Shown piece by piece: positions 13,985-57,168 of a stretch of 64,000 nucleotides of DNA; position 1 is the stretch's first letter; each line of letters opens with the position of its first letter. The position numbers and the translations under genes were made by a program. The DNA comes from Histomonas meleagridis 2922-C6/04-290x (lineage: Eukaryota > Protista > Parabasalia). The notes below the pieces were generated by a model, which was not told where the DNA came from, searched no databases, and saw only the letters and a program-made list of their open reading frames with translations. The stretch lies in the NCBI GenBank assembly GCA_020184695.1, contig JAANOX010000231.1:62001-126000 (forward strand), written 5' to 3'.

Positions 13985-14709
13985 TTTTGTTGAAATATTA
14001 AATAAGCAATAAAAGAAATATATTCGATATTAAAACCATTTTCTTTTTTTAGATTAAACATTGAATTTCTTTTAGATATGTATATCATTAATTTTAATAA
14101 CAAGAAATGAATTTTTATAGAACATTGAAAGAATAACAAATATACGCAATGATAGACCAAATTTTATAAATATAGTTTAATTTGTATAAATATTAAAATG
14201 AAAAAGCATGAACTGAAAAAAATCATAACTGGTTTAACCTCATATGTCAATGATATCAATTTTCTTCAAATTCGTTATAACTTGTGATAGTCCAACTTTT
14301 AACCTCGAAAAAATTCCTCGAAAATTCCCATTTCTAAAACGCCAACATAATTAAGACATGGCTTGATAACATATATCTTAAATATGCACACACCTATTAT
14401 CATGCACTTCTTCAAACGAAATTAAATAATAAAAACTATATTAACATTTATATAAATTGTCACATACACTCATTTTTATAATTTGCTTTGATTCATAGTT
14501 ACAATGGTAACTAGGAAAAAATACGTCCGTCATTATAATGGGAAAACATTTCAAATGTTTCAAATTTGTTCCAAAAGCCATGAAGTCGATTTTCTTTGCC
14601 ATTTTCGAAAAAGGTTTGAGCGACCACTATCTGAAAAACGAAGACACAAACGGAGTTTTTTCAATGGTTTTACACTTTTTTGTCATTTGTCAAGCGAAAT
14701 ATCTTTCAA

Positions 14710-14842
14710 AAATGCCATTTATGGCAAAAATTTCATAAATGCCACCTATGGCAAAAATTTCATAAATGCCACCTGTGGCAAAAATTTCATAAATGCCACC
14801 TATGGCAAAAATTTCATAAATGCCACCTATGGCAAAAATTTC
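14710..14842. repeat. 27-bp minisatellite, about 4.9 copies, each with a TGCCA-N4-TGGCA inverted repeat
   Basis: Unit AAATGCCACCTATGGCAAAAATTTCAT. First copy has CATTT, third has TGT; no spacers. Confidence 0.95.
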
Positions 14843-14883
14843 TAATCTATCCATCCATTCAAACAATATGTCACAATTTTTTT

Positions 14884-18777: not shown

Positions 18778-19065
18778 TAAAAGTCATTCCATTTAAATTA
18801 TGATTTATGAAATAATGCATCAAAGAAATCCATTGAAATTAATACCTCCCACAGTATCCAAATCCAAATATACAAAAAGAAATTGAATAATTCGAAACTA
18901 TTGCTGTTAGATATGGTGTAATGCTTGAGAGCCTGCATGTTATGGTAATACTACATGAAATTTTTTAGATAAAGATAATCAAAATAATGGATTATTAAAT
19001 CTACTTATGTTGGAGTAATGAATAATCAACTACATTAAATAATGTCTTTTAGATAATAATAATAA

Positions 19066-19165
19066 TAGTGATATAAACATATTATAAATAATTTCATATT
19101 TGAGATAATAATAGTAAATAATCACATTTTATATTATTCAAACTATTTAAATATGATCTTTAAAT
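19066..19165 (+). repeat. 100-bp direct repeat, copy 1
   Basis: TAGTGATATAAACATATTATAAAT...ATATGATCTTTAAAT; differs from copy 2 at 2 positions. Confidence 0.95.
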
Positions 19166-19326: not shown

Positions 19327-19578
19327 TTACTTCCGACCATAATAATTTAAGTTTTCTTGATTACGAATTTGACATGCAGCGAGATAATCACCTTGTGTAG
19401 CTTTTCCTTCTTTCATAAGATTGTAAACCCTATGTTCATTATTAACTGCTTTTTCATATCGAACTGATGGTGTATCAAATGAAGAAAACCCGGGTGATAA
19501 ACTAACTCCAGAAGGATTGAGGTTACAATGTAACATTTGATATATAGGATTTGTTAATAATGGAAGTGGAAAAGACAT
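19327..19578 (-). CDS. Small hypothetical protein (83 aa)
   Basis: Clean ATG-TAA ORF, GC-richer than its flanks, with Inr-like TCACTTCATT just upstream of the ATG. Confidence 0.6.
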   Translation of the reverse strand: MSFPLPLLTNPIYQMLHCNLNPSGVSLSPGFSSFDTPSVRYEKAVNNEHRVYNLMKEGKATQGDYLAACQIRNQENLNYYGRK

Positions 19579-19806
19579 TATAATAATGAAGTGAATTGAT
19601 GGAAAATTTTGGGGAATATCATGATAACTTTTTTAATATGCGTTTTTGAAATTTTTAATGTAAAATTTTGAATAATTTTTTCCTTATTTTTAATGCCATT
19701 AAAATGACAAAAATTGATTTTTATAATTTATTAAACTTAATTATTAATAAATTTAATAATAAAAATTATGAAAAAAGAAGAAAGAAAGTTTAAAAATTTA
19801 AAAATT

Positions 19807-19906
19807 TAGTGATATAAACATATTATAAATAATTTCATATTTGAGATAATAATAGTAAATAATCAAATTTTACATTATTCAAACTATTTAAATATGATCT
19901 TTAAAT
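19807..19906 (+). repeat. 100-bp direct repeat, copy 2
   Basis: 98/100 identical to 19066-19165. Confidence 0.95.
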
Positions 19907-25352: not shown

Positions 25353-28300
25353 CTAAATGAGTGATAAGCTTATTTCACTTTCACTTTCGGCAGGAGCGTT
25401 CGGCTTTTTTTGGTTATTTTTCTTTGCGAAAATTCGTTTTAAGCAAGAACACATTTTTTCCTTTTTGGTCAACTTATGGTTTCTAATTATTTCTTCGAAG
25501 TTAATATCATTAAAACCATTTTCCAACACATTTTCCATCACATCGAATGGCACAGACGGCCACACATTTTGGAAAGTGTCCTCCAACAAGTCGCATAATT
25601 TCTTCTTTTCGAAGTTAAACTTTGGGTTTTTAGTTTCTTTTCGAATATATTTTTGGATTTTTGCGATTATTGCATTTGTAATATCGACTTCGTTATCTTC
25701 TTTTTCATACTTATCTTTTGCCCATTTCAATATTGTTTCGAAAATCGATAAAATTCGTTTCTTCACTGTATAAATATTCGTGAACCAATCATGAATGAAT
25801 GAATAACCAATTCCGATGACACCACTCGCTGCTATTGCTGAAGCTAAAGCAACAATAATCTCAACGGCATCATTAAGTTCACAACTTTCCGCAAGTGTTG
25901 AACTTTTATCTTGGAATGTATTAAAACCTGTTGAATCATAACATCGATTATCATCTGTAGAATTACCTTGACAAGTTTTCGGTACATTTGATAAACATTT
26001 TATTGCTAAGTTACCAAATGCTTTATCACCAATTACAATCGAATTGTTTTTACTAAGTTCTTTATCAAAATAAATTCGTGTTAATCCTTTACATTGAAGA
26101 AATGCATTTCGTCCAATATATGAAACATTTTTAGGAAATTGTAATACTTGTGTAAAACCTGTACAATAAGCAAATGCTGAATCACCAATATATATTAAAG
26201 ATTGGGGTAAAATTAATTGGTTTTCTAATCCATGACAATCGAAGAATGCAAAATTACCAATATAAACTAAAGTGTTTGGTAAATCTAATGTACCTTTTAA
26301 TGAAGTACAACTAAAGAATTCATTATTACCAATTTCTTTAAGGATTTTGGTGTGGATTTCAAGTTGTCCATTAAAACCTTTACATTCAGAGAATGCATAA
26401 GCGCCAATATATTCAACATTATCACCAATTATTAATGAACCAGTGAATGAAGAACATAATGTAAATGCATATTGATTAATTATTTTTACATTATTAGGTA
26501 TAATTAAAGGTCCAGCAAATTTAAAATTAGAAAATGCATATGCACCAATTTCTATAAGTGAATCAGGTAATACTAATGATCCACCAAATGAAGTACAACC
26601 TAAGAATGCATATGATGAAATTATTTGTAATTTTGTATTATTAGTGAAATCTAAAATACCATTAAATCCATTACAATTAGCAAATGCACTTTGCCCAATT
26701 GAAACAAGGCGTTTAGGTAAAAATAATGATCTTGTAATACTTTTACATCCTGAAAATGATTCTCGTTCAATACTAATAAGTCTTTTAGGTAATCTTGAAG
26801 CTAAGTCAAATGAATCTAATTTCCAAAATGCTTCATCATCAATAATTAAATCTTTTCCATTTGAATGATATAAAATTAGGACATTGCTCAATGAAATGTG
26901 AACTAATCCTAGTAACAGTTGAAGCAATTTTTATGTATTTTAATGTTGACGACTTTTTTAATACAATATGACGGAATTATTGATGAAGAAAATAGAAAAC
27001 TTTGATCGCATGAATCTTCAAATGAATATGATTCCATCTCTAAAACACTAGTACAATCAAATTCTAATGATGAACATTTAATTAATGCTTGTGATTCTAT
27101 TTTAATAATTATTGAATTTTCATCTAGCAAAACACTTTTTAATGATGGACAATTACAAAAAGCATTGTGACCAAATGTTACATTTGAATAAATAAAATAT
27201 ATTGCTTGAAGTGATGTACAATCTGTAAATGAATTACTTAATATGAAATTACCATTAGAAAAAGATATAGTTGTAATTTTGGGACAATTTTTCGTTGAAA
27301 ATTTTATGGTACCCAATCCAACAATACTAAGTGATTCCAAATTTTTACAATCAGTCACAAAATCACTTAAATTTCCTTTAGTACCAATGACAATTTGTTC
27401 AAGATTATCACAGCTCGAAATTGCACCATAAGAAATATCTTCTGAAAAAATTTCTAGATATTTTAATGAAGAACATCCATAAAATGCATCATTTCCAACG
27501 AATGTATTCTCGAGAATACCTAATCTTTTTAAATTTGTACATTCATAAAATGCATTCGATAAAACCATTACAGCTTTTAGTTGTTGAGGTTCTGAAATAT
27601 CAAGGTTTTTACAATGGGAAAAACAACCATCATCAAAATATATATAAGAATTGTGATCAAAAGAAAGGTCATTAATATTTGTATATGCAAAACAACTAGA
27701 ACCAAATGTTATGTTCTTAATAAAATAATTATTAAATGAAATATCACAACTTAAAGCAGAATTTTCAAATGCATACGAACCTATTTCTAATATTCTCTCA
27801 TCATATGATTGTTTGAATGATATCGATGAAATATTTAATCCTTGAAAACATTTTTCACCAATTGTTTGAAGACTTCCAGGAAAGATAATTTCTCCTGTTA
27901 ATTATGTATCAACAAATGCTGAATCGCCAATTGTTTTTAATTTAGAATCATCAGCAAATTGTTGTTTCAATTAATGATTTCAATTTCTCTTAATGAATAT
28001 GGAAACATATTACCAAGTGGTTTAGTAAATGTATGATAAAAAAAAAGCATAAGAACATATTCTTGTAAGTTTTGAATTACTAGGAAATGAAATTGAAGAA
28101 ATTTTTGTGAAAATAAAACAACGAGTACCAATTTCAGTTAGCTGAAAAGGAAATAATACATCACACGTTAATAAAATACATCCTTCAAAAACACTTTCAC
28201 CTAAAATTAAACTTGCGTTTTCTGATGATGAATCTTCAAATGAGATTGATGAAATTTTTGTGTAATAAAAACACCCGTTGCCAATTATTTGCAGAGATGA

Positions 28301-28693
28301 AGATAATTGAATATGTCCAGTGAGATTTGCATGATAAAATACCGTAGATCCAAACATTTGAAGTTGTGAGCCTTCTTCGAAATTTTATAAAGCGATCTGT
28401 TGTGAATGAAAATAATTGGCTCCTATGGAAATTATGCTGCTTGGAATCGTGAGCGAACCACTTATAATACCGGTATGGCCCCCATGTAGAACTAAATGCG
28501 CTACAGGATAATTATTGTTTTGGTGTTGAATGGTAGATGGTATTACTAAATTATTTGTATCTTTGAGAATTTTGGTAAGATTTATTGAACTTGTGGATTC
28601 ATCATAACAATATTCAAATAGGCCATCTGTTGTGTTATAATAGTCAGGTAAATTCTTTACGAATGAAAACAAGAATAAAAGAAAACAAAACAT
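25353..28693 (-). pseudogene. Fragmented large BspA-like LRR surface-protein gene
   Basis: Signal peptide MFCFLLFLFSF at 28693. TpLRR repeats (xxIGxxAFxxC) run through 28385-28762, 28022-28357, stop-ridden 27680-28020, 26909-27568 and 25353-26927, ending in a TM helix and cytoplasmic tail. Confidence 0.85.
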
Positions 28694-28953
28694 ATATAAA
28701 TGATCAATATGACAGTGAACTAACACAATAGTGTCATTAATTAACAAAAAAATATTTATCAAACTTTCAATTGAAATATTAATATTCTTAAGAACGATAT
28801 TGATCGTAACGTTACAAGGAATTGAAAGAGTTATTGTTGTTACAGAACTTTTTGATATATTTCATACAATATTTTGTTTATTAAAAACGCCTTTACACAC
28901 AACAAATTTCTTTAAAGTGTGCAAATCCATGTCGAATCCATTTTAAAAGAACA

Positions 28954-36157: not shown

Positions 36158-36754
36158 ATGGCTGAAGATCGTGGGATAAAAGTTGTATTGATTGGCGATC
36201 CTGCTGTTGGCAAAAGTTGTATTGCAAACCGAGCAGTTACAGGCGTTTTTAACGAAGAAATGGAGGCAACACTTGGGGCTTCTTATATTTCAAAAGTAGT
36301 TACATTCAACGATAAAGAATACAAGCTTCAAATATGGGACACAGCAGGACAAGAAAAGTTTCGTGGTTTAACACCTCTTTATTTTCGAGGTGCAAATGTT
36401 GCACTAATTGTTTACGCGATTGATAATATCGATAGTTTTCATGCAGTCGAAAAATGGCTAACGCGTCTAAGAGAATCGGCAGACAAAGACGTTCGAATTT
36501 TTTTGGTGGCAAATAAAATCGATAACATAGCGTACAAAGTTGTAGAATCGGATGAAGGTCAGGAACTAGCAGAAAAGATTGGTGCAACATTTTATGAGGT
36601 TAGTGCAAAAACAGGTCAAGGTGTAGATGATCTTTTTGCTGAAATTCCAGAAGCTTACGAAGGTCAATCAAACAGCGAACAAAATTCACAACAAACAGTC
36701 AAAATAGATGGCAAAAAGTCAAAGAAACACAAGTCTAAGCTTGGAAAATGCTAA
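36158..36754 (+). CDS. Rab-family small GTPase (Rab5/21/22-related)
   Basis: GDPAVGKS, WDTAGQE, YFRGA, NKID, EVSAKTG and a terminal Cys. Confidence 0.95.
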   Translation: MAEDRGIKVVLIGDPAVGKSCIANRAVTGVFNEEMEATLGASYISKVVTFNDKEYKLQIWDTAGQEKFRGLTPLYFRGANVALIVYAIDNIDSFHAVEKWLTRLRESADKDVRIFLVANKIDNIAYKVVESDEGQELAEKIGATFYEVSAKTGQGVDDLFAEIPEAYEGQSNSEQNSQQTVKIDGKKSKKHKSKLGKC

Positions 36755-37200
36755 CGTGTAAAAACCTTTTTGGCGCTACAATTAATAACCGTTATAATGC
36801 AAGCAATTTTTCGTTTTCGAAATTCAAAAATTGAATTATACCAAATTATTTGTTCAAAAACATTGAATTAATTCCGTTAACCTGGCAGTCAAGGTCAAGT
36901 GATTTAACGTCTTTAAACGTTTTCCAGTCATGACCGTTATAATGGATATGTTTAGGTGGTTCAACCAGATAAAAATTTGCTTTTCTAGCGAAGGGTACCC
37001 TTCATAAAGTACTTATTCTTTTCAATTTTGCAAAATGAATTGCCCATGGGGAGCCTTGGGCAAGTTTGAATGAAGTGTGAACTTTACACCAACGATACAC
37101 TCTGAAAAAACCACAGTTTGGTGGGTTGCAGTGGGCATGTTTGAATGGTATTCAAAATGTATTAGTTGGTACATTAACAATGTTATTTCCAATAACAATT

Positions 37201-37461
37201 TCATAAATTGGAATACGAACAGATAATGTAGAACCTGTCTCTAATGCTAATCGTGAAGTAATATGGATAATATATAGTGAGATCTTGCTCAGTATAATTA
37301 GGAATTCTTCCATTATTTTGCAAAACTCCATACGCTCTTTCTAAATCATGATCAGTTATGGGAGAATTAGAAGAACTGGTTAATTTACGATGTAAAACTC
37401 GTTCTTTATTTAGTGAATAATATGATTCATTACGTGTACCAATACGATAAGGATCAAACAT
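37201..37461 (-). other. Orphan 86-aa ORF downstream of the capsid relic, possibly an accessory ORF of the endogenous virus
   Basis: Same strand as, and 47 bp after, the capsid fragment. Coding-like sequence continues to about 36860 with frameshifts; no recognised homolog. Confidence 0.35.
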
Positions 37462-37508
37462 AAAAATAAATAGGTGGTGAAATATTTATTCAAATATAAT
37501 TGCATGAT

Positions 37509-37718
37509 TTAATTGTAATCCTCTTTATGTCCCAAATCACTTTCATCATCAGATTCTGCAGTAGTGATTAATAATATTATTGAATTACCTGCATTCAAAT
37601 TACGTGCAGACCTAGTACGAAATACTTGCATTTGATCAAATCCTGGTGTGATATATTTTGACATAATAACATTTTGATTAGGTTCATATAATGATGCTGG
37701 TGCTACAGGAGTACCTCT
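37509..37718 (-). pseudogene. CRESS-DNA virus capsid C-terminal fragment (kirkovirus/Po-Circo-like)
   Basis: Manual translation: RGTPVAPASLYEPNQNVIMSKYITPGFDQMQVFRTRSARNLNAGNSIILLITT...*. YxPNQxVIxS and xRNLNxGDxIxL resemble recalled kirkovirus-type Cap motifs. Not in the ORF track. Confidence 0.6.
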
Positions 37719-37727
37719 TTAAATATA

Positions 37728-39905
37728 TAGACAGTGGGAAAAGTGCGTCCGTCAGCCTTTTTTTCGATGAATAAATAAGTAAAAGAAAATTTGTTTACTT
37801 ATTATGCAATGTATTCACCTTGAGTTTCAATTGTAATTATAAGTCTGTTCATCCATTCATTATATAGGATGTCCGGGAGAAATGTTAGCATATCTATATA
37901 TAGACAATTAATATAATTAATATTATTATATTATAATAGAGCACTTTGGATACAATATAAATATATATATATAATATTTATTTAATATTTCAGACAATTT
38001 GGTAAATTTTGGATTTTTCTTCGAAAAAATTTGAAGGATTTATTTTTGTCACAATGCAAACACACAGAAAATGATTGACCAAGATAGTGTCGCAAGATAT
38101 CTCAGCCTAAAAGGATGGACAGCTGTTAAAATTTATATTAAAATTTATGAAGGAGACTTTAGGTACTTCCTGGAAATCATATCAGAGTATTGCTAGAGCG
38201 ATTAGATTAGGAACAATTGGAACAAATAGTAATGAGTCTAATGAATCAATTAATTTCACTGAACCATCAAACACTGATGAAAATATGTGGATATGTTTGA
38301 TGAATTCCCTTTCTCTTCAGTTAGGCAAATAGCCCATAAAACATATATCCCAAGATCAAGTGTTTACGATCACCTAATCAAAATTAAGTTCGTTTGCATA
38401 CACCTTCATTGGGTACCCCATTCTCTTACACCATAGCAAAAAAAGTGCGGGTTCGATTATGTATCAAACTATCATAGGTCATTAGAACTGCAAAAAAAGA
38501 TTCCTAGAGGCATTTTGTTACAGAAGATGAAAAATGGTTTTATTTCAACTATGATTATCGAGAAAGATGGGGACAAATAGGGGATAACCCAGAAGAAATT
38601 GTATCAAATAAAATTTCTTCTCAAAAATTCATGTTGTCAATATATTTCAATGCAAATGGTTTTGTTATCGTTGACTGTCTTCCTAGAGGTCAAAAGTTTA
38701 ATGCACACTACTACGTGAATAATATTCTATCTAAACTTGTTCAAAGATTCAATGATGGTTTTGATAAATATTTAATTTTGCACGTTGACAATGCAAAACC
38801 GCATACTGCTCGTATCACCACAAATTTTATTGACTCGAACCAGATGATAAGAGCTCCGAATCCCCCATATCCACATGATGTAGCACCATTAGATTTTTGT
38901 CTTTTAAATAATGTCAAAGAAAAGCTCAAGGGTTATTCATTTGAGACCCCTGAAGAGTTAAGACATCAGGTTCATCGAATTTTAAATGACATTTCAGAAG
39001 ATGAATTGAACCGTGCTTCTCTGAACTGGGAAGAGAGATTTCAAATAGTTATTGAGACCAAAGGTGAATACATTCACTAAATATAAAAATAATATTTTAT
39101 GTTTTCATTTATTATCTTTATATGTTGAAATGCTAACACTTTTACCGGACACCCTATATAGGGCTTCGTAGGTGTCTTTAAAAATACTATACAGTAACGC
39201 CTAAACCTTTTGAAAAGTTGATCTTTATTTTCAAACATCTCACCTTTGAGCATTTTTTTTCGATATCCGAACAGAAAAAAGTCAGACGGTGCGAGATCTG
39301 GCGAAAACGGGGGTTGCAGAAGTTTCTGAATGCTCACTTCATTCAATTTTTCATGAACCATATGAGGTCGGGCGTTATTCATATGAAAAAAATACCCCTC
39401 AGTTGAAATTCTTTTTGCCGAATCTCCAAGTACAACTTCAGAAAAAAATTTCGATCGAATTTTTGACCTATTGGGAGCATTGTTATTGATTTGATACCAT
39501 TTATCAACCATATAACAAATATCATCACTTTTTTGGAGGCAATAGTTTGTTTGGGTTTGTTTGGTTTTTGCACTCCAGATTCAATTTACATGAAGTTTCT
39601 CCCGTTAACAAAATAAATCCAGGTTTCATTTTGCGTCAATATGTGCCTCAGTCTGTGATCATATGAACTAACCAAAGAAAATTGACAACAGAACGTAATT
39701 CCTCAATTGGAACTGACATAAGAATGATTAAACGTTCTTTTTCAGAGGGTATCCTGAAAAAAAGTCGTTTTACTTCATGCATCATATTTATTTGAAAAAC
39801 AGTATTATAATATATTTATTATAAATTATATTATATAACTTGATTTTATAAAAATCTAATATTAATCGAAATAAAATATGACGAACGGACTTTTTCCACC
39901 CCCTA
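37728..39905 (-). mobile_element. Outer mariner element B, internally deleted, host of nested element A
   Basis: 27-bp TIRs at 37728-37754 and 39879-39905 (21/27 match), TA on both flanks. Transposase remnants: ELRSVVNFLWL, LRHILTQNETWIYF, FHMNNARPH, QPPFSPDLAPSDFFLFG, and C-terminus EWMNRLIITIETQGEYIA* left of A. Confidence 0.9.
37865..39156 (+). mobile_element. Inner mariner element A (1292 bp), D,D34D-type transposase pseudogene
   Basis: 27-bp TIRs at 37865-37891 and 39130-39156 (23/27 match), TA TSD. Transposase 38071-39080 has VTEDEKWFY, LHVDNAKPH, PPYPHDVAPLDF and WEERFQIVIETKGEY, with frameshifts and stops. Confidence 0.93.
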
Positions 39906-39907
39906 TA

Positions 39908-40125
39908 TTTATTTGTAAAAGATGGATTATAACTTGGAACAATCCCCCAGAAAACTGGCAAGAAAACGATTAAGAACTAATGATTAATAACATCGAATCT
40001 CTAATCGCAGAAAAAGAATATGCTCCTACAACATGGAATTGTCATATTCACGGATATTTCCAGATTGAGTATTAATTAGTATAAACAAACTGTAAAGTCA
40101 TGGTTACCAAGTATATATACTTTTG
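39908..40125 (+). pseudogene. CRESS-DNA virus Rep (HUH endonuclease) N-terminal fragment
   Basis: Manual translation from 39917: KRWIITWNNPPENWQEND*ELMINNIESLIAEKEYAPTTWNCHIHGYFQIEY*. This gives RCR motif I (W-x-x-T-W-N-N-P) and motif II (ExAPTTGxxHIHGY, with G>W). TVKSWLP follows after a frameshift. Not in the ORF track. Confidence 0.85.
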
Positions 40126-40654
40126 TCTCGCCCAAATTTGTAATTTTATATCAGAAAAATTGATAGCATTAAGATATTATTGAAAATTGGATTGAGTTAT
40201 AATTTTTGGCGCCAGTATTGGCGGGATCGATGGTAGCGAAAAATTCCCTGAAACTGCTAATGATTATATCAAATTCATGTGATAACCGTTGTTGATACAA
40301 AATCAGTTTATTATCCTCATGTTGACCTATCTTTACGCAACTCCTGGACCACCGGGGGATCAGTGTGGCAGGGTTGAGAATGGATCGCCTGCACATTCAC
40401 GCTACAGCGTCAGGTAGGTCAACAATAACAAATTAATACAGTAAAACAATAGTGAACATGTCAGAAGGAGATCTCAGCATTGCATCTCAACAAAACATCA
40501 ATGAACATCTCAAATGAACAAAAAAAATAATAAATATTGAAAATGTTTTTTGACTTTTGTTATTGATAAATTTTTCTTTTTCTTCACAATATGTGAATTT
40601 TTCTTAATAAAAATTGCTTTTTTTATTTTAATTTAACTTTGACGTATTTTTTTC

Positions 40655-41815
40655 ATGAATCGTTTGAACCGTGTCTATAATGACAATCCAAGATTCCACA
40701 AAGATCACAAAGAATACATAAATTACGACATATGGATGCTAATATGTGCAGAATTTCAGGACGAAAAGGCCATACCATCCATAAGCAATAGAACTGGTAT
40801 TCCTCCATCAACTCTTCATACATGGAGGATATGCTACCGGGAAGATCAAAAATGGTCCCCAAGAGATAACAACTGGGGAAGAAGAAATAGAATTTTTAAA
40901 GGAGAAAAAGAAAATAACCTTGCATCATATTATTGATCAAGGAAAGTTTTACTCCACAAATAAAGACTTCAAAGAAATCGCAATTGAATACTACTTGAGT
41001 ATTCACCCAGGTGATGACATTAAAATGTTCAATTGTTCGGAGGGGTCAATTGCGCATTTCAAAAGAAGACACAAGTTCTCATCCAAAAGGTTCCATTTCA
41101 AATGCAGGATGAAACGTTACATCGGAACAAAGGCAACATTGGCTGGAACAAATGTGCAAGCTTTTGGCAAAAGTACCTCATACGAAAATCATAAATTGTG
41201 ATGAGACTTCATACTGCCTATACCCAAAAGGTTTGCTTACATGTGATGTTGTCGGACAAGATAATGTGAAGACATTGATCCGAAGGAACGAGAAGGACAA
41301 CATGACGGTTATAGCTAGTATAACAGCAGAAGGCAAGAAATTCCCTCTTATGTATATAGCGAAGGGCAAAACCGAGAGAGCCGAAAATTCACAAATTGGT
41401 GATATTGGTCCGCATTGGAAAACCCACTCGGAAAGTGGATGGATGACAAACGAAGCTTTCCGAATATACCTGAGAAAATTGCGAGAGCATTTTGGTGATA
41501 ACAAGACGATTCACCTGGTTTTGGACTGCTACAAAACCCACAAAAGTAAACTGATCAGGAATTTGGCAGAAAATCTCAACATTTCATATCACTTTATTTC
41601 TCCAGGAATGATGAATTTCAGCCACTCGATAGGAAGATCTTTGGCATCGTGAAGGAACATGCAAAAAAATTTCATCGGAAACGCGTAAAAAAGGTAATTG
41701 GCAACATCACAAAAAGTGGAGCGTGTGTGAAATGATTCAAGCCTGGGATCTTATAAAGAAGGAATCTTCGGTTTTGAATTCATGGGACATCTATGATGCA
41801 TGGCATATTGAATAA
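40655..41815 (+). mobile_element. pogo/Tigger-like (DDE_1, CENP-B-type) transposase pseudogene
   Basis: HTH (TGIPPSTLHTWR), CSEGSIAHFKRRH, IINCDET, FPLMYIAKGKT, SESGWMT, LVLDCY and QPLD (about 41620) lie in successive shifted frames; TIRs not resolved. Confidence 0.88.
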
Positions 41816-42140
41816 AAATCATTATAAATTGATCTAATTTTTTCGAAATAATCGATAATTGTCAAAAGAATCAAAATTTCCAATAATTTAAAATTTATAT
41901 AGTATTTGATATTTAAATGACAACGTAGGGATATGCTTTAAATAACATTCATTATGTGGCTTAAAATAATTTTAATAAACCGATGCACCGATCAAAGATT
42001 TTTTCCGTCCGAAATTTTAAATGATACATATCAAATTACATATGATATAGTCTTTTAATTAGCCTCGTAGCAGCCGTTTAATAAACAATTAATTATTAAA
42101 TAACATACTATTAATATGTAACTTGTAACGTAACGTAATG

Positions 42141-42683
42141 TTAAATATAACTATTATAAAGAAAAAAGTATAATGAAGTTGTAACCAAACAAGTTACGTC
42201 ACGAAGTCTGGTGGTAAAAAAAAGCGCACTTTTTGATTGGTTTATGCAACAACAATAGTGAAAGTAGGGTTCGTTTTTGGGGGTGATGAGTTTTGATCGG
42301 CGTGCATTTAAAACGAAGTTGAGGTGCCCTTTCTTTTTTTCTGGACGATTAAATTGGAACAAGGTAAATTGTTTATATATGGATTTGCATTTCCATATTG
42401 TAAGAGACTTTGGTGCAAATGGATCTCTCTTGGCTACATTTGCCATTGCTTGGTAACCAACATTAGCTTCCTGCTTATATGCCATTATATAGGCGAGTTC
42501 TTCTTGAGTTACAGGAGGAGATGGACGACCACAATTTCGAATTTGGATTTCGAACATTTCACAAATCTCATGTACCCTATCTCTTCCGATGTGGTATTTC
42601 TTCATCACTGCCTTTACGCCTTTGGCACAGATATCGTACTTGAACTTATCAATGCTGAAGCTCATTAAAAGTAAACCTGACAA
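42141..42683 (-). mobile_element. IS481/integrase-like transposase N-terminal fragment
   Basis: AVMKKYHIGRDRVHEI...GRP...YKQEANVGYQAMA...WKCKSIYKQFTLF resembles the N-terminal half of recalled parabasalid 'integrase core' transposases; catalytic core missing. Confidence 0.5.
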
Positions 42684-44550
42684 ATATTGGATTTAAATTT
42701 ATCGAATATTCAATTGTTTCAATATCTATCAATTCATTCAATTTTTTAATAAAAATTTTTGAACGTATATGTATAAAAAATCTTAAGATGCTTTGAAGCA
42801 TGTTAATATACATTACATTATATATTGTTTTCATCTTGGTATTATTATATAACTCAAAAAACCAAGTATTAGGACTGTTAGAAAATATCTTTATATAATA
42901 TGTTTTCAAAGTTTTCTTATTAATAAATTTATCTTTAATACGACGTTTAATAACATTTTTTATTTTCTTATTAGTTGCACTAGAAATAACTTTCATAATA
43001 TGTTTTTTTACATGATAATAGAATTTAAAATGTGTCTTATCTATAATACTTGTTACTTGTTAAAAAAGGAGTGAAATAATCAGTAAAATACCAGGTGCTA
43101 TGCAAGCATTTAGAGGCAAGAAAGATAAAGTAGAACGTGGTATTGATAATATAGTGAATATGGTACCAGATTCAAAATTTGAAAATAAGATTAGAGGTGC
43201 TGTTGATAATGGCAAATAGTAGATAGAGTCCAAAAAGTCTCTGATAAAGCACAACCTTATATAACAGCTGGTAGAAATATTTATAATAAATTATAAAAAT
43301 TTAATTCAAATACCTAAAAATAAAGAAGATATTAAAAAAATAGTTAATTCTCTGCAATATAAAGATGCTGTTAATAAAATAATATTATCATTAACTAATT
43401 ACATTTTTATTATTATAATATGTGTTAAATGACTGAGATAGAGATTGATTCTGGTATTAATGAGAATGAAACTACTAATAATGAAAAATAAGTGATCAAT
43501 AATGAAATAGGAAAGAAACCTATTAAAAACTTAACTAATAAAAAAAATAACATTGTATTAAATAATGCTATAAAAGGTATTGATAATAAGTATTATGATG
43601 TAGTATTTTATAAGAATGGTAATTCAAGAATAGTTTTAAAGAAATCAGGTAAAGAAAGTAATAAGAATAATAATAAAGTTAATAAAGATAAAGAAAGTAA
43701 AACTATTACTAACTCAACTAATGATCAGTATATGATAGAACATTTATTCAGACTTGAAAATAGAGTATCTAAATTAAAAAGTAAACAAAAGAAATTAAAA
43801 CGAAAATATAATAAAATGAGATATGATATTTATGATGAAGATGATGATAGTGTTATTATTAATGAAAATGAAACTACTAAAAATAATACTACTAAAGAAA
43901 ATATCACTGAAAACGAAACCAATGAGTCGCAGACAAGCTGCTCCGCTGCGCCAAATCAATCTTATGAAAGATATATTAAACAACCAAGAGGCTGGAGATT
44001 ATGTATTAGATCCTATAACTATTTATAAACAACTATATTTTATTTTTTATTAAATGTCTAAACGAATCAAAAGATCATTAAGAAAAGTCCGTAGAAAACG
44101 TAATCTTAATCAAATAACTAAAAGAAGTTTAAGAACTCTAAATAAATCTAACTCAGTTAGAAATGAAAAAATTGGATTAAGGGGAGTTGTTCCACCAAAA
44201 CGTTAATTGGGATAAAGTTAATAGATTAAGAAATACTAATGAATTTAAACAACGAGAATTAAATGATATCAAAAAATAGACAAAAAAGTTATATTAATCA
44301 AAGAAATGAATATGATAAGCAGATTAAACAAGCTCAAGATGAATCTAAACTAATTTCTCACATGGAATTGAAATACATTGTCCTCCCCCTCACTCTTCAG
44401 ATCAACTTCAAGCTCTCGACCTTTGCGTATTTTCCGCGACAAAATCTTATGCAACAAGGATTGGAAATATTGATACAGGGAAATTATAAAATATCTATTA
44501 ATATACAATGTATGAATAATCATAATAATAAATCATTAAACACATTTTAA
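42649..44550. mobile_element. Maverick/Polinton fragment (integrase relic plus small ORFs)
   Basis: 42649-42996(-) YYIKIFSNSPNTWFFELYNN resembles Maverick integrase. Plus strand carries an amphipathic ORF relic (about 43060-43300), 43492-44028 (YDVVFYKNG...LFRLENRVSKLKSKQKKLK) and a basic MSKRIKRSLRKVRRKR ORF at about 44056. All resemble recalled trichomonad Maverick ORFs; very AT-rich. Confidence 0.65.
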
Positions 44551-54389: not shown

Positions 54390-56756
54390 TTAAATCCATT
54401 TATCTTTTTCGCTAAGTACATTTTCCTTGATTTCTTGATCAATGACATTTATTTTCACTAATTCATCAAATTCATCTCCGATTTTTTCTGCTTTGACGAG
54501 TTCTTTTTTATTATGTTTCACCAGATATATAACAATTCCGATGATTATAAAAACAATTGCAACAGAGCAACAAATAATTCCAATTAAAACTCCATTCGAT
54601 AAAAATGTTTGTGATGTTTTATTAGAATCAATAATTGTGAAATAAACTTTTGATATAACAAAATAAGTCGAATATCGAAAAACTGTATATTCATATATCA
54701 CTAAATCCGTAAAAAATAATGTATAAAAAGAACCACTCAAAGATAATGAATATGACTTTGTTAAAAGTGAATTATGTATACTGATTGTTTGAGTAATAAG
54801 TAAAGATTTTGTTAATATAAGAGTTTGAGATAAAATTCCATCAAATGGAATAGAACCTGAAAATGTATTTGAATTAGTGAATGTATTAGAATTAGTAAAT
54901 ATATTCGACTTTGTATGTGAATTTGAATTAGTGAATGTATTAGAATTAGTAAATATATTTGACTTTGTATGTGAATTTGAATTAGTGAATGTATTAGAAT
55001 TAGTAAATATATTTGACTTTGTATGTGAATTTGAATTAGTGAATGTATTAGAATTAGTAAATATATTTGACTTTGTATGTGAATTTGAATTAGTGAATGT
55101 ATTAGAATTAGTAAATATATTTGACTTTGTATGTGAATTTGATTTTGTGTGTGTATTTGATTGTGAAAATGACATATTCGGAAATGGTGAACATCCTTCA
55201 ATGGAATTTCCGCGCGAAATTGGAAATGAAGCAAATGTATCATTTAAATATGTTTCCAATGTCATAACGGTGGTAACTTTAGTATCAGTGAAAACACTTG
55301 TCCCAAATGATGGTTCTATTGTACCATAATAATAAAAACATACCAAATTTGTACAAGATCGAAATGTTGAATTACCAATACTTTTAACATTTCCTTCAAT
55401 AATAACAGTTTCAAGTTTACTATTTACAAAAACTGAATTTTCAATTATCATAACAGATGATGGAATTGTGATCTTTAACAATGATGAACATGAATAAAAT
55501 GAATAATTATTAAGAATATTTACACTTGATGGAATTGTATATGTAATATCTTGTTTCCCTGATGGATAACAAATAATTTCTGTGATTTTTTTGTTATAAA
55601 GAATACCATCATCATCATAGTTTGAATAAAATGCATTTTCTGTTGAAACTTTAATAATTTGAAGATTGGTACATAACATAAATGGATTAATCATCAATGA
55701 AACTGATTTAGATATAGTAACATTCTTTAAAATAGTACAATTTTGAAATGCATATTGGCCAATCGTTAGAACATTTTCTCCAATTATAACAGTTTCAAGA
55801 TTAGGACTTGATAAAAATGAATTCAATTCAATAAATAAAATAGAATTTGGAATTTTAATATAATGAATTAAACAAAAAGAAAATGAATAAGATTTAATCG
55901 TTTTAACGCTATTTGGAATATCAAATGTTTCATTCGTTGCTTTTGGTGAATACCAATAAATTTCTGTAAGATTTATATCATATAAAACTTGACACTGATT
56001 TGAATTACAATAATATAAATTCCTTTTGGAAACATTAATAATTTCTAAACTTATACATAAACTAAATGCACTTGTTCCAATATTTGTAACTGATGATGGA
56101 ATCGTAATATTAACTAAAGATAAACATCTTTCAAATGCTGATTTTCCAATCGTTTTAACATTTTCACCAAAAATAAATGATTCTAATGAATTACAATTGT
56201 AAAATGCATAAAGTCCAATGCTTTCTAAACTATTTATGAAATTAAAAACGATTGACTTTAACAGCATACAATTAAAAAATGCTTCCTTATAAATTGATTC
56301 AACTTTACTTGTAATATTGACCGAAATTAATGAAGAATAATATGAAAATGATGATTGTAAAATTTTAATAATTTCACCTTCAATAATAACATGTTCTGCT
56401 AAATCTTTATAATCAGATTTAAATTCATCATAATTTGTAATTGTGAGCGTTTTTGTCGTTTTATTAAATGTTTCAAATGTTTGTTTGAAAAATAAAACGA
56501 ATATAAACAAATAGATTCCATATTTACATTTATTAGAATTATTGACAATATTGAAGAGAAAATATTTTTTCAAAATAATCAAATTTTGAATCAAAACCAT
56601 TAATAATGAGATATAAATAAAATATTCATTTGCTATAATAATATTTTTGAAATTAATTTCATTTTTCATTGAGATAAATGATGTATAAAAACCAATTACA
56701 AGAAATGCACGAATTAAAGTAATCATTGGTGGTAATAGGTTTGATGATTTTATCAA
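54390..56756 (-). CDS. BspA-like LRR surface protein with tandem-repeat stalk and TM helix
   Basis: TpLRR repeats (ITIPSSVTNIGTSAFSLC), FYYYGTIEP cap, SxTFT repeats, TM GVLIGIICCSVAIVFIIIGIVIYLV and a short tail. The true start may lie downstream of 56756. Confidence 0.9.
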   Translation of the reverse strand: MIKSSNLLPPMITLIRAFLVIGFYTSFISMKNEINFKNIIIANEYFIYISLLMVLIQNLIILKKYFLFNIVNNSNKCKYGIYLFIFVLFFKQTFETFNKTTKTLTITNYDEFKSDYKDLAEHVIIEGEIIKILQSSFSYYSSLISVNITSKVESIYKEAFFNCMLLKSIVFNFINSLESIGLYAFYNCNSLESFIFGENVKTIGKSAFERCLSLVNITIPSSVTNIGTSAFSLCISLEIINVSKRNLYYCNSNQCQVLYDINLTEIYWYSPKATNETFDIPNSVKTIKSYSFSFCLIHYIKIPNSILFIELNSFLSSPNLETVIIGENVLTIGQYAFQNCTILKNVTISKSVSLMINPFMLCTNLQIIKVSTENAFYSNYDDDGILYNKKITEIICYPSGKQDITYTIPSSVNILNNYSFYSCSSLLKITIPSSVMIIENSVFVNSKLETVIIEGNVKSIGNSTFRSCTNLVCFYYYGTIEPSFGTSVFTDTKVTTVMTLETYLNDTFASFPISRGNSIEGCSPFPNMSFSQSNTHTKSNSHTKSNIFTNSNTFTNSNSHTKSNIFTNSNTFTNSNSHTKSNIFTNSNTFTNSNSHTKSNIFTNSNTFTNSNSHTKSNIFTNSNTFTNSNTFSGSIPFDGILSQTLILTKSLLITQTISIHNSLLTKSYSLSLSGSFYTLFFTDLVIYEYTVFRYSTYFVISKVYFTIIDSNKTSQTFLSNGVLIGIICCSVAIVFIIIGIVIYLVKHNKKELVKAEKIGDEFDELVKINVIDQEIKENVLSEKDKWI
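54869..55140. repeat. 54-bp coding tandem repeat, 5 copies (TNSNTFTNSNSHTKSNIF)
   Basis: Near-identical units TTGAATTAGTGAATGTATTAGAATTAGTAAATATATTTGACTTTGTATGTGAAT. Confidence 0.95.
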
Positions 56757-57168
56757 AGTAAAATTATCGAAGTTTGATTATAATGAATCGAGTACTTTAT
56801 TTTTTTACAACACTATAGGTTTTTCTAAACTCCAAATTTTTGAATGAGTTTTTAAGTATGGTTTGTCCTTATGTGGTTTGTTGTTGAGTTTTCTGAAGTT
56901 AATTTCCTAAACAACAATTCTTTTTTTGATCAATTTACATAAAATTATTTTTTGATCATTCTGTCTATAAAACTTTATTTAAAGAAAGTTTTTTTTCCCA
57001 TTTATTCATAAACAAATAAAAAAATTCATATCATATATAGAATTTGAGATGACAAATGTAATGAATTTTTGCATGTTTTTATTTCACACTTAGTAAATAT
57101 AAAGTAATTTAAAGTTGAAAACATTTCGCATTGTGAAAAATATATAATACATTATTAAACAGTTTATA

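What the first reader, a model, noticed from the sequence alone, without database searches (positions are those of the whole stretch)
36860..40430. Hidden endogenous CRESS ssDNA virus (Rep plus capsid relics) split by nested mariners
Seen: just right of mariner B (39917-40075) the plus strand reads KRWIITWNNP...EYAPTTWNCHIHGYFQ, i.e. rolling-circle Rep motifs I and II (HUH). Just left of B (37718-37509) the minus strand reads LYEPNQNVIMS...RSARNLNAGNSIILL. Removing B at its TA duplication puts the two about 20 bp apart and divergent. Neither appears in the ORF track. Established: HUH Reps define cressdnaviruses, and to my recollection Kirkoviridae have been linked to parabasalid hosts through endogenous copies. 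Inference: one integrated kirkovirus-like genome fragment, a fossil record of ssDNA virus infection in this lineage, older than both mariners.
Basis: partly seen in the sequence, partly recalled or inferred. Interest (0 to 1): 0.9.

Follow-up and report, generated by a model that had tools for sequence, protein, structure and literature searches.

The report
Broken kirkovirus fossil in parasite genome
Three broken genes of a small single-stranded DNA virus (kirkovirus type) lie in this protist's chromosome on either side of two nested transposons that likely deleted the virus's middle; it is a real but ordinary fossil, of a kind already reported in large numbers for Histomonas meleagridis, the likely host.

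Summary
39917-40066 (+) matches the N-terminus of a cressdnavirus Rep (52% to Human fecal virus Jorvi2). 37718-37515 (-) matches the second half of its capsid gene (56%). Order and orientation match intact genomes, so one integration is likely. Assembled reads join the relic to a host Rab gene. Neighbouring genes point to Histomonas meleagridis. One correction: the ~20-bp spacing is not the natural intergenic region. The matching points lie 672-1470 nt apart in intact relatives, and the front half of the capsid gene is absent from the window. Mariner B therefore marks a deletion, probably of its own making (only 5 of 87 TA sites fall in that gap). Kirkovirus affinity is supported; the sub-lineage is unresolved. 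Novelty is low: Kinsella et al. 2022 report 145 cressdnavirus-like elements in H. meleagridis, and intact Rep and Cap copies are annotated for that species. The element is most likely inert.

The parts
36860..37200 (-). Unassigned stretch; possibly the decayed rest of the post-capsid ORF
   Evidence: Position fits the length of that ORF in relatives (mostly 185-345 aa), but there is no tblastn or profile hit here. Inference only.
37201..37461 (-). N-terminal 86 codons of the ORF that follows the capsid gene in kirkovirus-type genomes
   Evidence: Profile of 15 non-redundant post-capsid ORFs: 28.9 bits, E 5.7e-8, best of 880 window segments (next 6.5), 1000 shuffles at most 10.7; pairwise tblastn E down to 0.006 over 37461-37270.
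37509..37724 (-). Second half of a kirkovirus-type capsid gene; first ~87-96 codons absent, last codons diverged
   Evidence: 56% to Jorvi2 Cap residues 88-158, E 5e-20; 66-77% to H. meleagridis 'Cap protein' copies over 39-53 residues; profile positions 86-145 only.
37728..39905 (-). Mariner B: broken transposase on the minus strand, TA on both sides, sitting at the deletion point of the viral DNA
   Evidence: Terminal inverted repeats 21 of 30 alike; Transposase_1 E 0.004; multi-copy in assembled reads.
37865..39156 (+). Mariner A, inserted at a TA inside B's transposase gene; broken transposase
   Evidence: Terminal repeats 25 of 30 alike; Transposase_1 E 2e-7; contigs of other B copies leave the window sequence at 37865-37866 (loose ends).
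39914..40132 (+). N-terminal piece of a cressdnavirus Rep (motif I and HUH motif II; firm 39917-40066); 3 in-frame stops, no start codon, no recognisable motif III, no helicase domain
   Evidence: 52% to Jorvi2 Rep residues 9-64, E 6e-11; profile positions 10-82 of 308, 47.1 bits; stop count.

Best explanation
This is a broken, likely inert piece of one kirkovirus-type ssDNA virus genome (post-capsid ORF, capsid half, Rep start) integrated next to a Rab gene of a parabasalid, likely Histomonas meleagridis, with mariner B likely having deleted the virus's middle and mariner A having inserted into B later. Shown: the three gene relics, their virus-like order and orientation, their link to host DNA, the missing 650 nt or more, and the nesting of A in B. 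Inferred: (1) a replicating viral DNA was captured into the chromosome, by double-strand-break repair or by its own HUH Rep (established routes for such elements, recalled, not testable here); (2) B landed in the viral DNA, and the segment holding the capsid start, the intergenic region (probably with the origin) and Rep's first codons was lost with B's ends as breakpoints, by an adjacent deletion or by recombination between two B copies; (3) A then inserted into B; (4) point mutations and further loss removed the rest of Rep. It cannot replicate or package: no Rep start, no motif III, no helicase, half a capsid.
For: Homology and controls. The capsid family folds as an eight-stranded jelly-roll (pLDDT 83.9); the highest TM-score among listed matches is to a nanovirus capsid (0.55). 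Order: post-capsid ORF directly behind Cap, and Rep divergent from Cap in 13 of 16 scorable relatives (3 same-strand). Integration: contigs of runs X1 and X2 run without a difference from 35900, through the Rab gene, to 37688; one X1 contig bridges the Cap/B junction, 37666-37837. Host: paralogues in the 90% clusters of three window genes are named H. meleagridis. Deletion: homologous anchors are 672, 956, 956 (same virus twice), 1003 and 1470 nt apart in five contiguous contigs and 931 and 1444 nt round the circle in L004 and L002, against 24 nt here; no front half of Cap anywhere in the window. Capsid homology reaches to within about 3 nt of B's left TA and Rep homology starts within 9 nt of its right TA; only 5 of 87 TA sites of the shown viral DNA lie in that gap.
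Against: No empty site was seen: no contig joins 37727 to 39908 in 4 of 4 runs laid, and these runs may be the window's own strain, so the order of deletion and insertion is not observed. The right junction is covered with only 26 letters on the B side, under the tool's 31. The TA count is a rough chance figure (about 5%), made after seeing the layout. The trees do not prove that Rep and Cap come from one virus: fragments fill 21-42% of columns, and the Cap placement is unstable. Pfam does not recognise any of the three pieces on their own.
Confidence: 0.62

Rival explanations
1. One integration of an already deleted (defective or scrambled) viral DNA; B later inserted cleanly at a TA that happened to lie in the AT-rich junction. 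This is closest to the first reader's picture.
For: TA on both sides of B; about 9 nt on the Rep side do not clearly match homologues (FIC against a commonest PRG), as expected of a repair junction; defective CRESS genomes and messy integration ends are common (recalled).
Against: Only 5 of 87 (or 5 of 110) TA sites lie in the gap; capsid homology runs almost to B's end.
Confidence: 0.22
2. Two separate viral integrations (a capsid-side one and a Rep-side one), each hit by a B-family mariner and brought together by recombination between the two mariners.
For: The genome has many Cap and Rep copies (PMC9615429) and many B copies; B's two ends differ at 9 of 30 places.
Against: The divergent orientation is the natural one; in the free trees both pieces fall near Jorvi2; a rearrangement between distant loci needs more steps.
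Confidence: 0.1
3. The relic is functional, for example as a template for antiviral small RNAs or as an expressed peptide.
For: The capsid piece and the post-capsid piece keep open frames of 69 and 86 codons; contigs in two runs guessed to be RNA extend from the Rab gene to about 37021-37025; small RNAs against repeats are reported in Trichomonas vaginalis (PMC7845603, search listing only).
Against: The capsid piece has no start of its own upstream of the homology and a stop right before it; Rep has 3 stops; it is far more diverged than the near-identical intact Cap copies of the species (92-99% among seven).
Confidence: 0.05
4. Assembly artefact or contaminating free virus.
For: Kirkoviruses occur in gut samples; repeats at both junctions could mislead an assembler.
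Against: Short-read contigs join host gene, relic and mariner end with no difference; stops and truncations are not those of a live virus.
Confidence: 0.01

Closest known systems
Kirkoviridae endogenous viral elements of Histomonas meleagridis (Kinsella et al. 2022, PMC9615429; sections 8 and 16 read, other passages, supplement searched)
   Same: Same likely host species and virus type: 145 elements reported (104 Rep-like, 102 of them Kirkoviridae; 41 Cap-like). NCBI names intact 'Rep' and 'Cap protein' copies in this species, one Rep and one Cap with consecutive accession numbers. The window's Cap piece is 66-77% identical to them.
   Different: This copy is decayed and truncated, carries a recognisable third gene, and is split by nested mariners at a deletion. 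The supplement holds no match to three peptides from this locus and I saw no per-element list, so whether this locus was among the 145 is unknown; their method (tBLASTn 1e-5, ORFs of 120 nt or more) would probably catch the Cap piece.
Human fecal virus Jorvi2 (L001, 3925 nt; its Rep is identical to P0294, named Jorvi2)
   Same: Best whole-genome match: Rep 52%, Cap 56%, 87% DNA identity over 54 nt of Cap; same gene order; post-capsid ORFs of its close relatives hit at E 0.007-0.04.
   Different: Free circular virus with all genes intact and 1444 nt between the two anchor points; the window has 24 nt. That Jorvi2 is formally in Kirkoviridae I could not confirm from a text.
Porcine/bovine circo-like kirkoviruses (L004: 3912 nt, 310-aa Rep, stem-loop GGGCAAGTCTGCCC as described in PMC10654594)
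   Same: Same capsid family (52% to the window piece, E 3e-11), same divergent Rep/Cap layout, post-capsid ORF starting with the same four residues.
   Different: Their Reps did not hit the window by tblastn at E 0.5 and form a separate branch; their stem-loop is absent from the window.
Mariner (Tc1/mariner, DD34D-type) elements
   Same: About 30-bp terminal inverted repeats, TA flanks, Transposase_1 domain.
   Different: Both copies are broken; the catalytic triad spacing was not tested. The H. meleagridis genome paper (PMC8529796, passages) lists few DNA transposons and does not use the word mariner.

Membership tests
Cressdnaviricota | Rep with HUH endonuclease domain (motifs I-III) | tested here: met
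   Motif I and motif II align to profile positions 10-82; 7 of 10 phmmer hits carry PF02407. Motif III is not recognisable in the relic.
Cressdnaviricota | SF3 helicase fused to the HUH domain | tested here: inconclusive
   Absent from the window because the piece is truncated; present in the full-length nearest homologues (PF00910).
Cressdnaviricota | Single jelly-roll capsid protein | tested here: met
   Model of the intact homologue P0193: 8 strands, pLDDT 83.9; Foldseek top matches are satellite-virus, nanovirus and geminivirus capsids, E 2e-5 to 5e-4, TM 0.37-0.55. Tested on the family, not on the half-gene itself.
Cressdnaviricota | Circular ssDNA genome with stem-loop origin | not testable with these tools
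   An integrated relic; no nonanucleotide or known kirkovirus stem-loop found in the flanks; the region where it probably lay is deleted.
Kirkoviridae | Rep phylogeny: falls within the kirkovirus clade | tested here: inconclusive
   Groups with Jorvi2, and one level up with the H. meleagridis Rep (SH-aLRT 95-96); grouping with five other CRESS Reps rejected (p-AU 0.0006). But the piece fills 21-22% of columns, no nenyavirus or CRESSV2.3 references were on hand, and the Jorvi2 branch and the L004-L006 branch did not form one firm clade.
Kirkoviridae | Kirkovirus-type capsid and extra ORFs (3-5 ORFs, 2.8-3.9 kb; PMC12892396, PMC9290044 passages) | tested here: met
   Capsid family shared with L004-L006; post-capsid ORF present in the same position. 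Whether related families share this capsid was not tested.
Kirkoviridae | Parabasalid host | tested here: met
   Window genes cluster at 90% with proteins named H. meleagridis; host link from PMC9615429.
Helitron or plasmid/phage rolling-circle Rep | Similarity to Helitron RepHel or plasmid Rep families | tested here: not met
   No such hit among 10 phmmer hits, none in Pfam, no match in 72,556 plasmids or 50,697 phages.
Endogenous viral element | Physically joined to host chromosomal DNA | tested here: met
   Contigs of X1 and X2 span Rab gene to capsid piece; X1 contig spans capsid piece to mariner B. Runs may be the window's own strain.

The most novel reading that the evidence does not exclude
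The relic records a second, older invasion of Histomonas by a lineage close to the human-stool virus Jorvi2, separate from the species' young intact Rep/Cap family, and a mariner cut out its origin and capsid start. It would then be a genomic link between human-gut kirkoviruses and the Histomonas/Dientamoeba group (their close kinship is recalled), where validation for Dientamoeba is still missing, and a clear case of a transposon disabling an integrated virus.
Probability: 0.2. Interest if true: 0.45.

Novelty: new member of a known kind. Interest (0 to 1): 0.24.

Why it matters
It is one more proof that kirkoviruses, found in stools of people and livestock and often blamed for diarrhoea, infect gut parabasalids and not the animal. 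That point was already made with 145 elements from this host species. What this locus adds is small: a third viral gene that Rep/Cap screens do not count, and a relative order of events (virus, then mariner B with a deletion, then mariner A) that could date the infection if B and A were dated or typed across isolates.

Tried and rejected
No whole genome is held for this window, so sister copies could be seen only through public contigs and protein clusters. Pfam gave nothing useful on the 12 flank frames or on the three pieces alone. The post-capsid piece found no relative in the word-based protein search (18 candidates, none at E 1) and only sub-0.9 hits in the ESM Atlas: no evidence either way. 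Idea rejected: that the left end holds Rep's C-terminus (a circularly permuted whole genome); the Rep profile finds nothing there. Idea not established: that the relic is Jorvi2-like and not of the H. meleagridis family. Free trees put Cap with Jorvi2 (95/92; 98), but forcing it with the H. meleagridis Caps gave a 3.2 higher likelihood (p-AU 0.59). For Rep, sisterhood to P0053 was weakly rejected (p 0.033) but membership of its wider group was not (p 0.29). No RNA holder listed on record; the runs guessed as RNA give no evidence on expression. No Rfam match in 36700-42800. The capsid profile has no sequence match in the PDB. The wide structural search was busy and not repeated. Accession MF118166 in the Kirkoviridae list is Tarto, not Jorvi2; a search for NC_035212 found no paper. 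Earlier scan findings: three look-ups, nothing shown. Three of the 10 phmmer hits (P0336, P0338, P0343) are long repetitive proteins and were set aside as chance.

Full report
Setting. The window is eukaryotic, 30% G+C, with actin, ribosomal proteins, leucine-rich-repeat genes and a Ras-family GTPase gene at 36158-36754. For five of six window proteins looked up, the exact sequence is in the collection; three of their 90% clusters hold paralogues named Histomonas meleagridis (one also Tritrichomonas musculus actin), two hold no name. I take the host to be H. meleagridis. No whole genome is held.

Observation. The 52-residue Rep piece found 1 relative among 12 candidate stretches in IMG/VR, the 3925-nt L001, whose Rep is identical to a protein named Human fecal virus Jorvi2. 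Of seven L001 ORFs, two hit the window: Rep 9-64 at 39917-40066 (52%, E 6e-11) and Cap at 37718-37515 (56%, E 6e-20). Of 120 Rep and 120 Cap homologues, 22 and 117 hit the window, all at these two places. Profiles without the window score the pieces 47.6 and 77.5 bits; the best of 1000 shuffles score 10.7 and 6.7. An unbiased phmmer search of 1.84 billion proteins gave 10 hits; 7 carry Pfam Viral_Rep and 3 are long repetitive proteins. Plasmids and phages gave no match. The capsid label was tested by fold: an intact homologue gives an eight-stranded jelly-roll (pLDDT 83.9) whose best matches are small-virus capsids, with the highest listed TM-score 0.55 for a nanovirus.

A third gene. In 43 of 47 capsid-bearing loci an ORF starts just behind Cap. 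I dropped three by hand (two frameshifted, one duplicate) and near-duplicates, leaving 15. Their profile picks 37485-37204 (-) as the best of 880 window segments (28.9 bits, E 5.7e-8; next 6.5; shuffles at most 10.7). It starts about 50 nt behind the capsid piece, on the same strand, as in the viruses. Beyond 37270 nothing matches, so 36860-37200 stays unassigned.

Transposons. B spans 37728-39905 and A 37865-39156, each between TA dinucleotides. B's transposase reads on the minus strand up to A and resumes after it with a typical mariner C-terminus. Contigs of other B copies leave the window sequence at A's left end, so A is the younger. Both are broken.

The junction is a deletion. The capsid profile matches positions 86-145 only, and no front half exists in 4260 tiles of the window. 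Of 47 loci, 20 hold Rep's N-terminus; 16 could be scored, 13 divergent and 3 same-strand. The distance between the points that match the window's two anchors is 672-1470 nt in five contiguous contigs and 931 and 1444 nt round the circle in L004 and L002; two incomplete contigs give only lower bounds of 222 and 298. In the window without B it is 24 nt. So at least about 650 nt are gone: capsid start, intergenic region and Rep's first codons. Capsid homology runs to 37724, next to B's left TA, and Rep homology starts within 9 nt of the right TA. Only 5 of 87 TA sites in the shown viral DNA lie in that gap. Since every mariner end abuts a TA (established knowledge), a TA on both sides does not prove a clean insertion. 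The coincidence favours a deletion made with B's ends, by adjacent deletion or by recombination between two B copies; a clean hit on an older junction remains possible.

Integration. Contigs of runs X1 and X2 run from 35900 through the Rab gene to 37688 without a difference. One X1 contig covers 37666-37837 across the capsid/B junction. The right junction is covered with only 26 letters on the B side. No contig joins the two flanks in 4 of 4 runs. Other contigs match the capsid core with a few differences (6 in 57 and 2 in 36 letters in X3) and then continue in other sequence, which fits sister copies elsewhere. All runs bear one species label and come from two studies among those laid; they may be the window's own strain and are not independent.

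Family. In two Rep trees (56 and 27 rows) the piece sits near Jorvi2, within a group that one level up includes the H. meleagridis Rep. Grouping with five other CRESS Reps is rejected (p-AU 0.0006). L004 has the size, Rep length and stem-loop described for bovine/porcine circo-like kirkoviruses (PMC10654594 passages) and shares the capsid family and post-capsid ORF. Finer placement failed: the Cap piece joins Jorvi2 in free trees but fits the H. meleagridis Caps as well (p-AU 0.59). No nenyavirus references were on hand, so formal membership is likely, not shown.

What is known. PMC9615429 (passages, sections 8 and 16, supplement searched) reports 145 cressdnavirus-like elements in H. meleagridis assemblies, 102 Rep-like ones in Kirkoviridae and 41 Cap-like. 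Three peptides of this locus are not in the supplement text; its tree figures, which I could not see, may label the elements. Searches for kirkovirus with endogenous and Histomonas listed no other paper on these elements. PMC12892396, PMC9290044, PMC12017068, PMC5989203 and PMC8529796 were seen as passages only.

How it works. It most likely does nothing now. Shown: three relics in viral order, joined to host DNA, with stops, truncations and nested mariners. Inferred: capture of viral DNA in the nucleus, loss of the middle at B's ends, insertion of A, decay. Odds: one integration with a B-linked deletion 0.62; one integration with an older deletion 0.22; two integrations joined 0.10; functional relic 0.05; artefact 0.01. 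That it is a genuine kirkovirus-type endogenous element is about 0.95 across these.

Verdict. A correct and well-spotted observation of an ordinary object: a new, decayed member of a published set. Interest 0.24.

Noticed in passing
window 40640-41830 (+): A third broken DNA transposon right of the Rep relic, with DDE_1 (E 2e-8) and DDE_3 domains, pogo/Tigger-like; contigs of sister copies skip 40613-41484 in three runs.
   Followed up: partly
window 40290-40610: Multi-copy stretch with very high contig depth in the two runs guessed to be RNA; no Pfam or Rfam match. Unexplained.
   Followed up: partly
window 39949-40063: A contig in 4 of 4 runs matches the Rep motif I region and the sequence from 40063 on but not the 113 nt between: probably a sister Rep copy with a different or missing middle.
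   Followed up: no
protein clusters of P0193 and P0053: H. meleagridis holds a family of near-identical, mostly full-length capsid genes (10 members in one cluster, four with consecutive accession numbers) and an intact Rep next to an intact Cap. Recent integration, amplification or domestication; more interesting than the present relic.
   Followed up: partly
window 42141-42692 (-): 183-codon frame in a multi-copy stretch that looks like the front of another transposase; no Pfam hit.
   Followed up: partly
window 19048-19165 and 19789-19906: 118-nt direct repeat, 92% alike, 741 nt apart, around a short ORF at 19327-19632.
   Followed up: no
window 14677-14869: Tandem 27-nt repeat, about six copies, just upstream of a long surface-protein-like ORF.
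   Followed up: no
window 25353-28861 and 54390-56777 (-): BspA-like leucine-rich-repeat genes by eye; the first is split over several frames, perhaps a pseudogene or sequencing frameshifts.
   Followed up: no
L106: A Jorvi2-like contig with Rep on the same strand as Cap, unlike its close relatives: inversion or misassembly.
   Followed up: no
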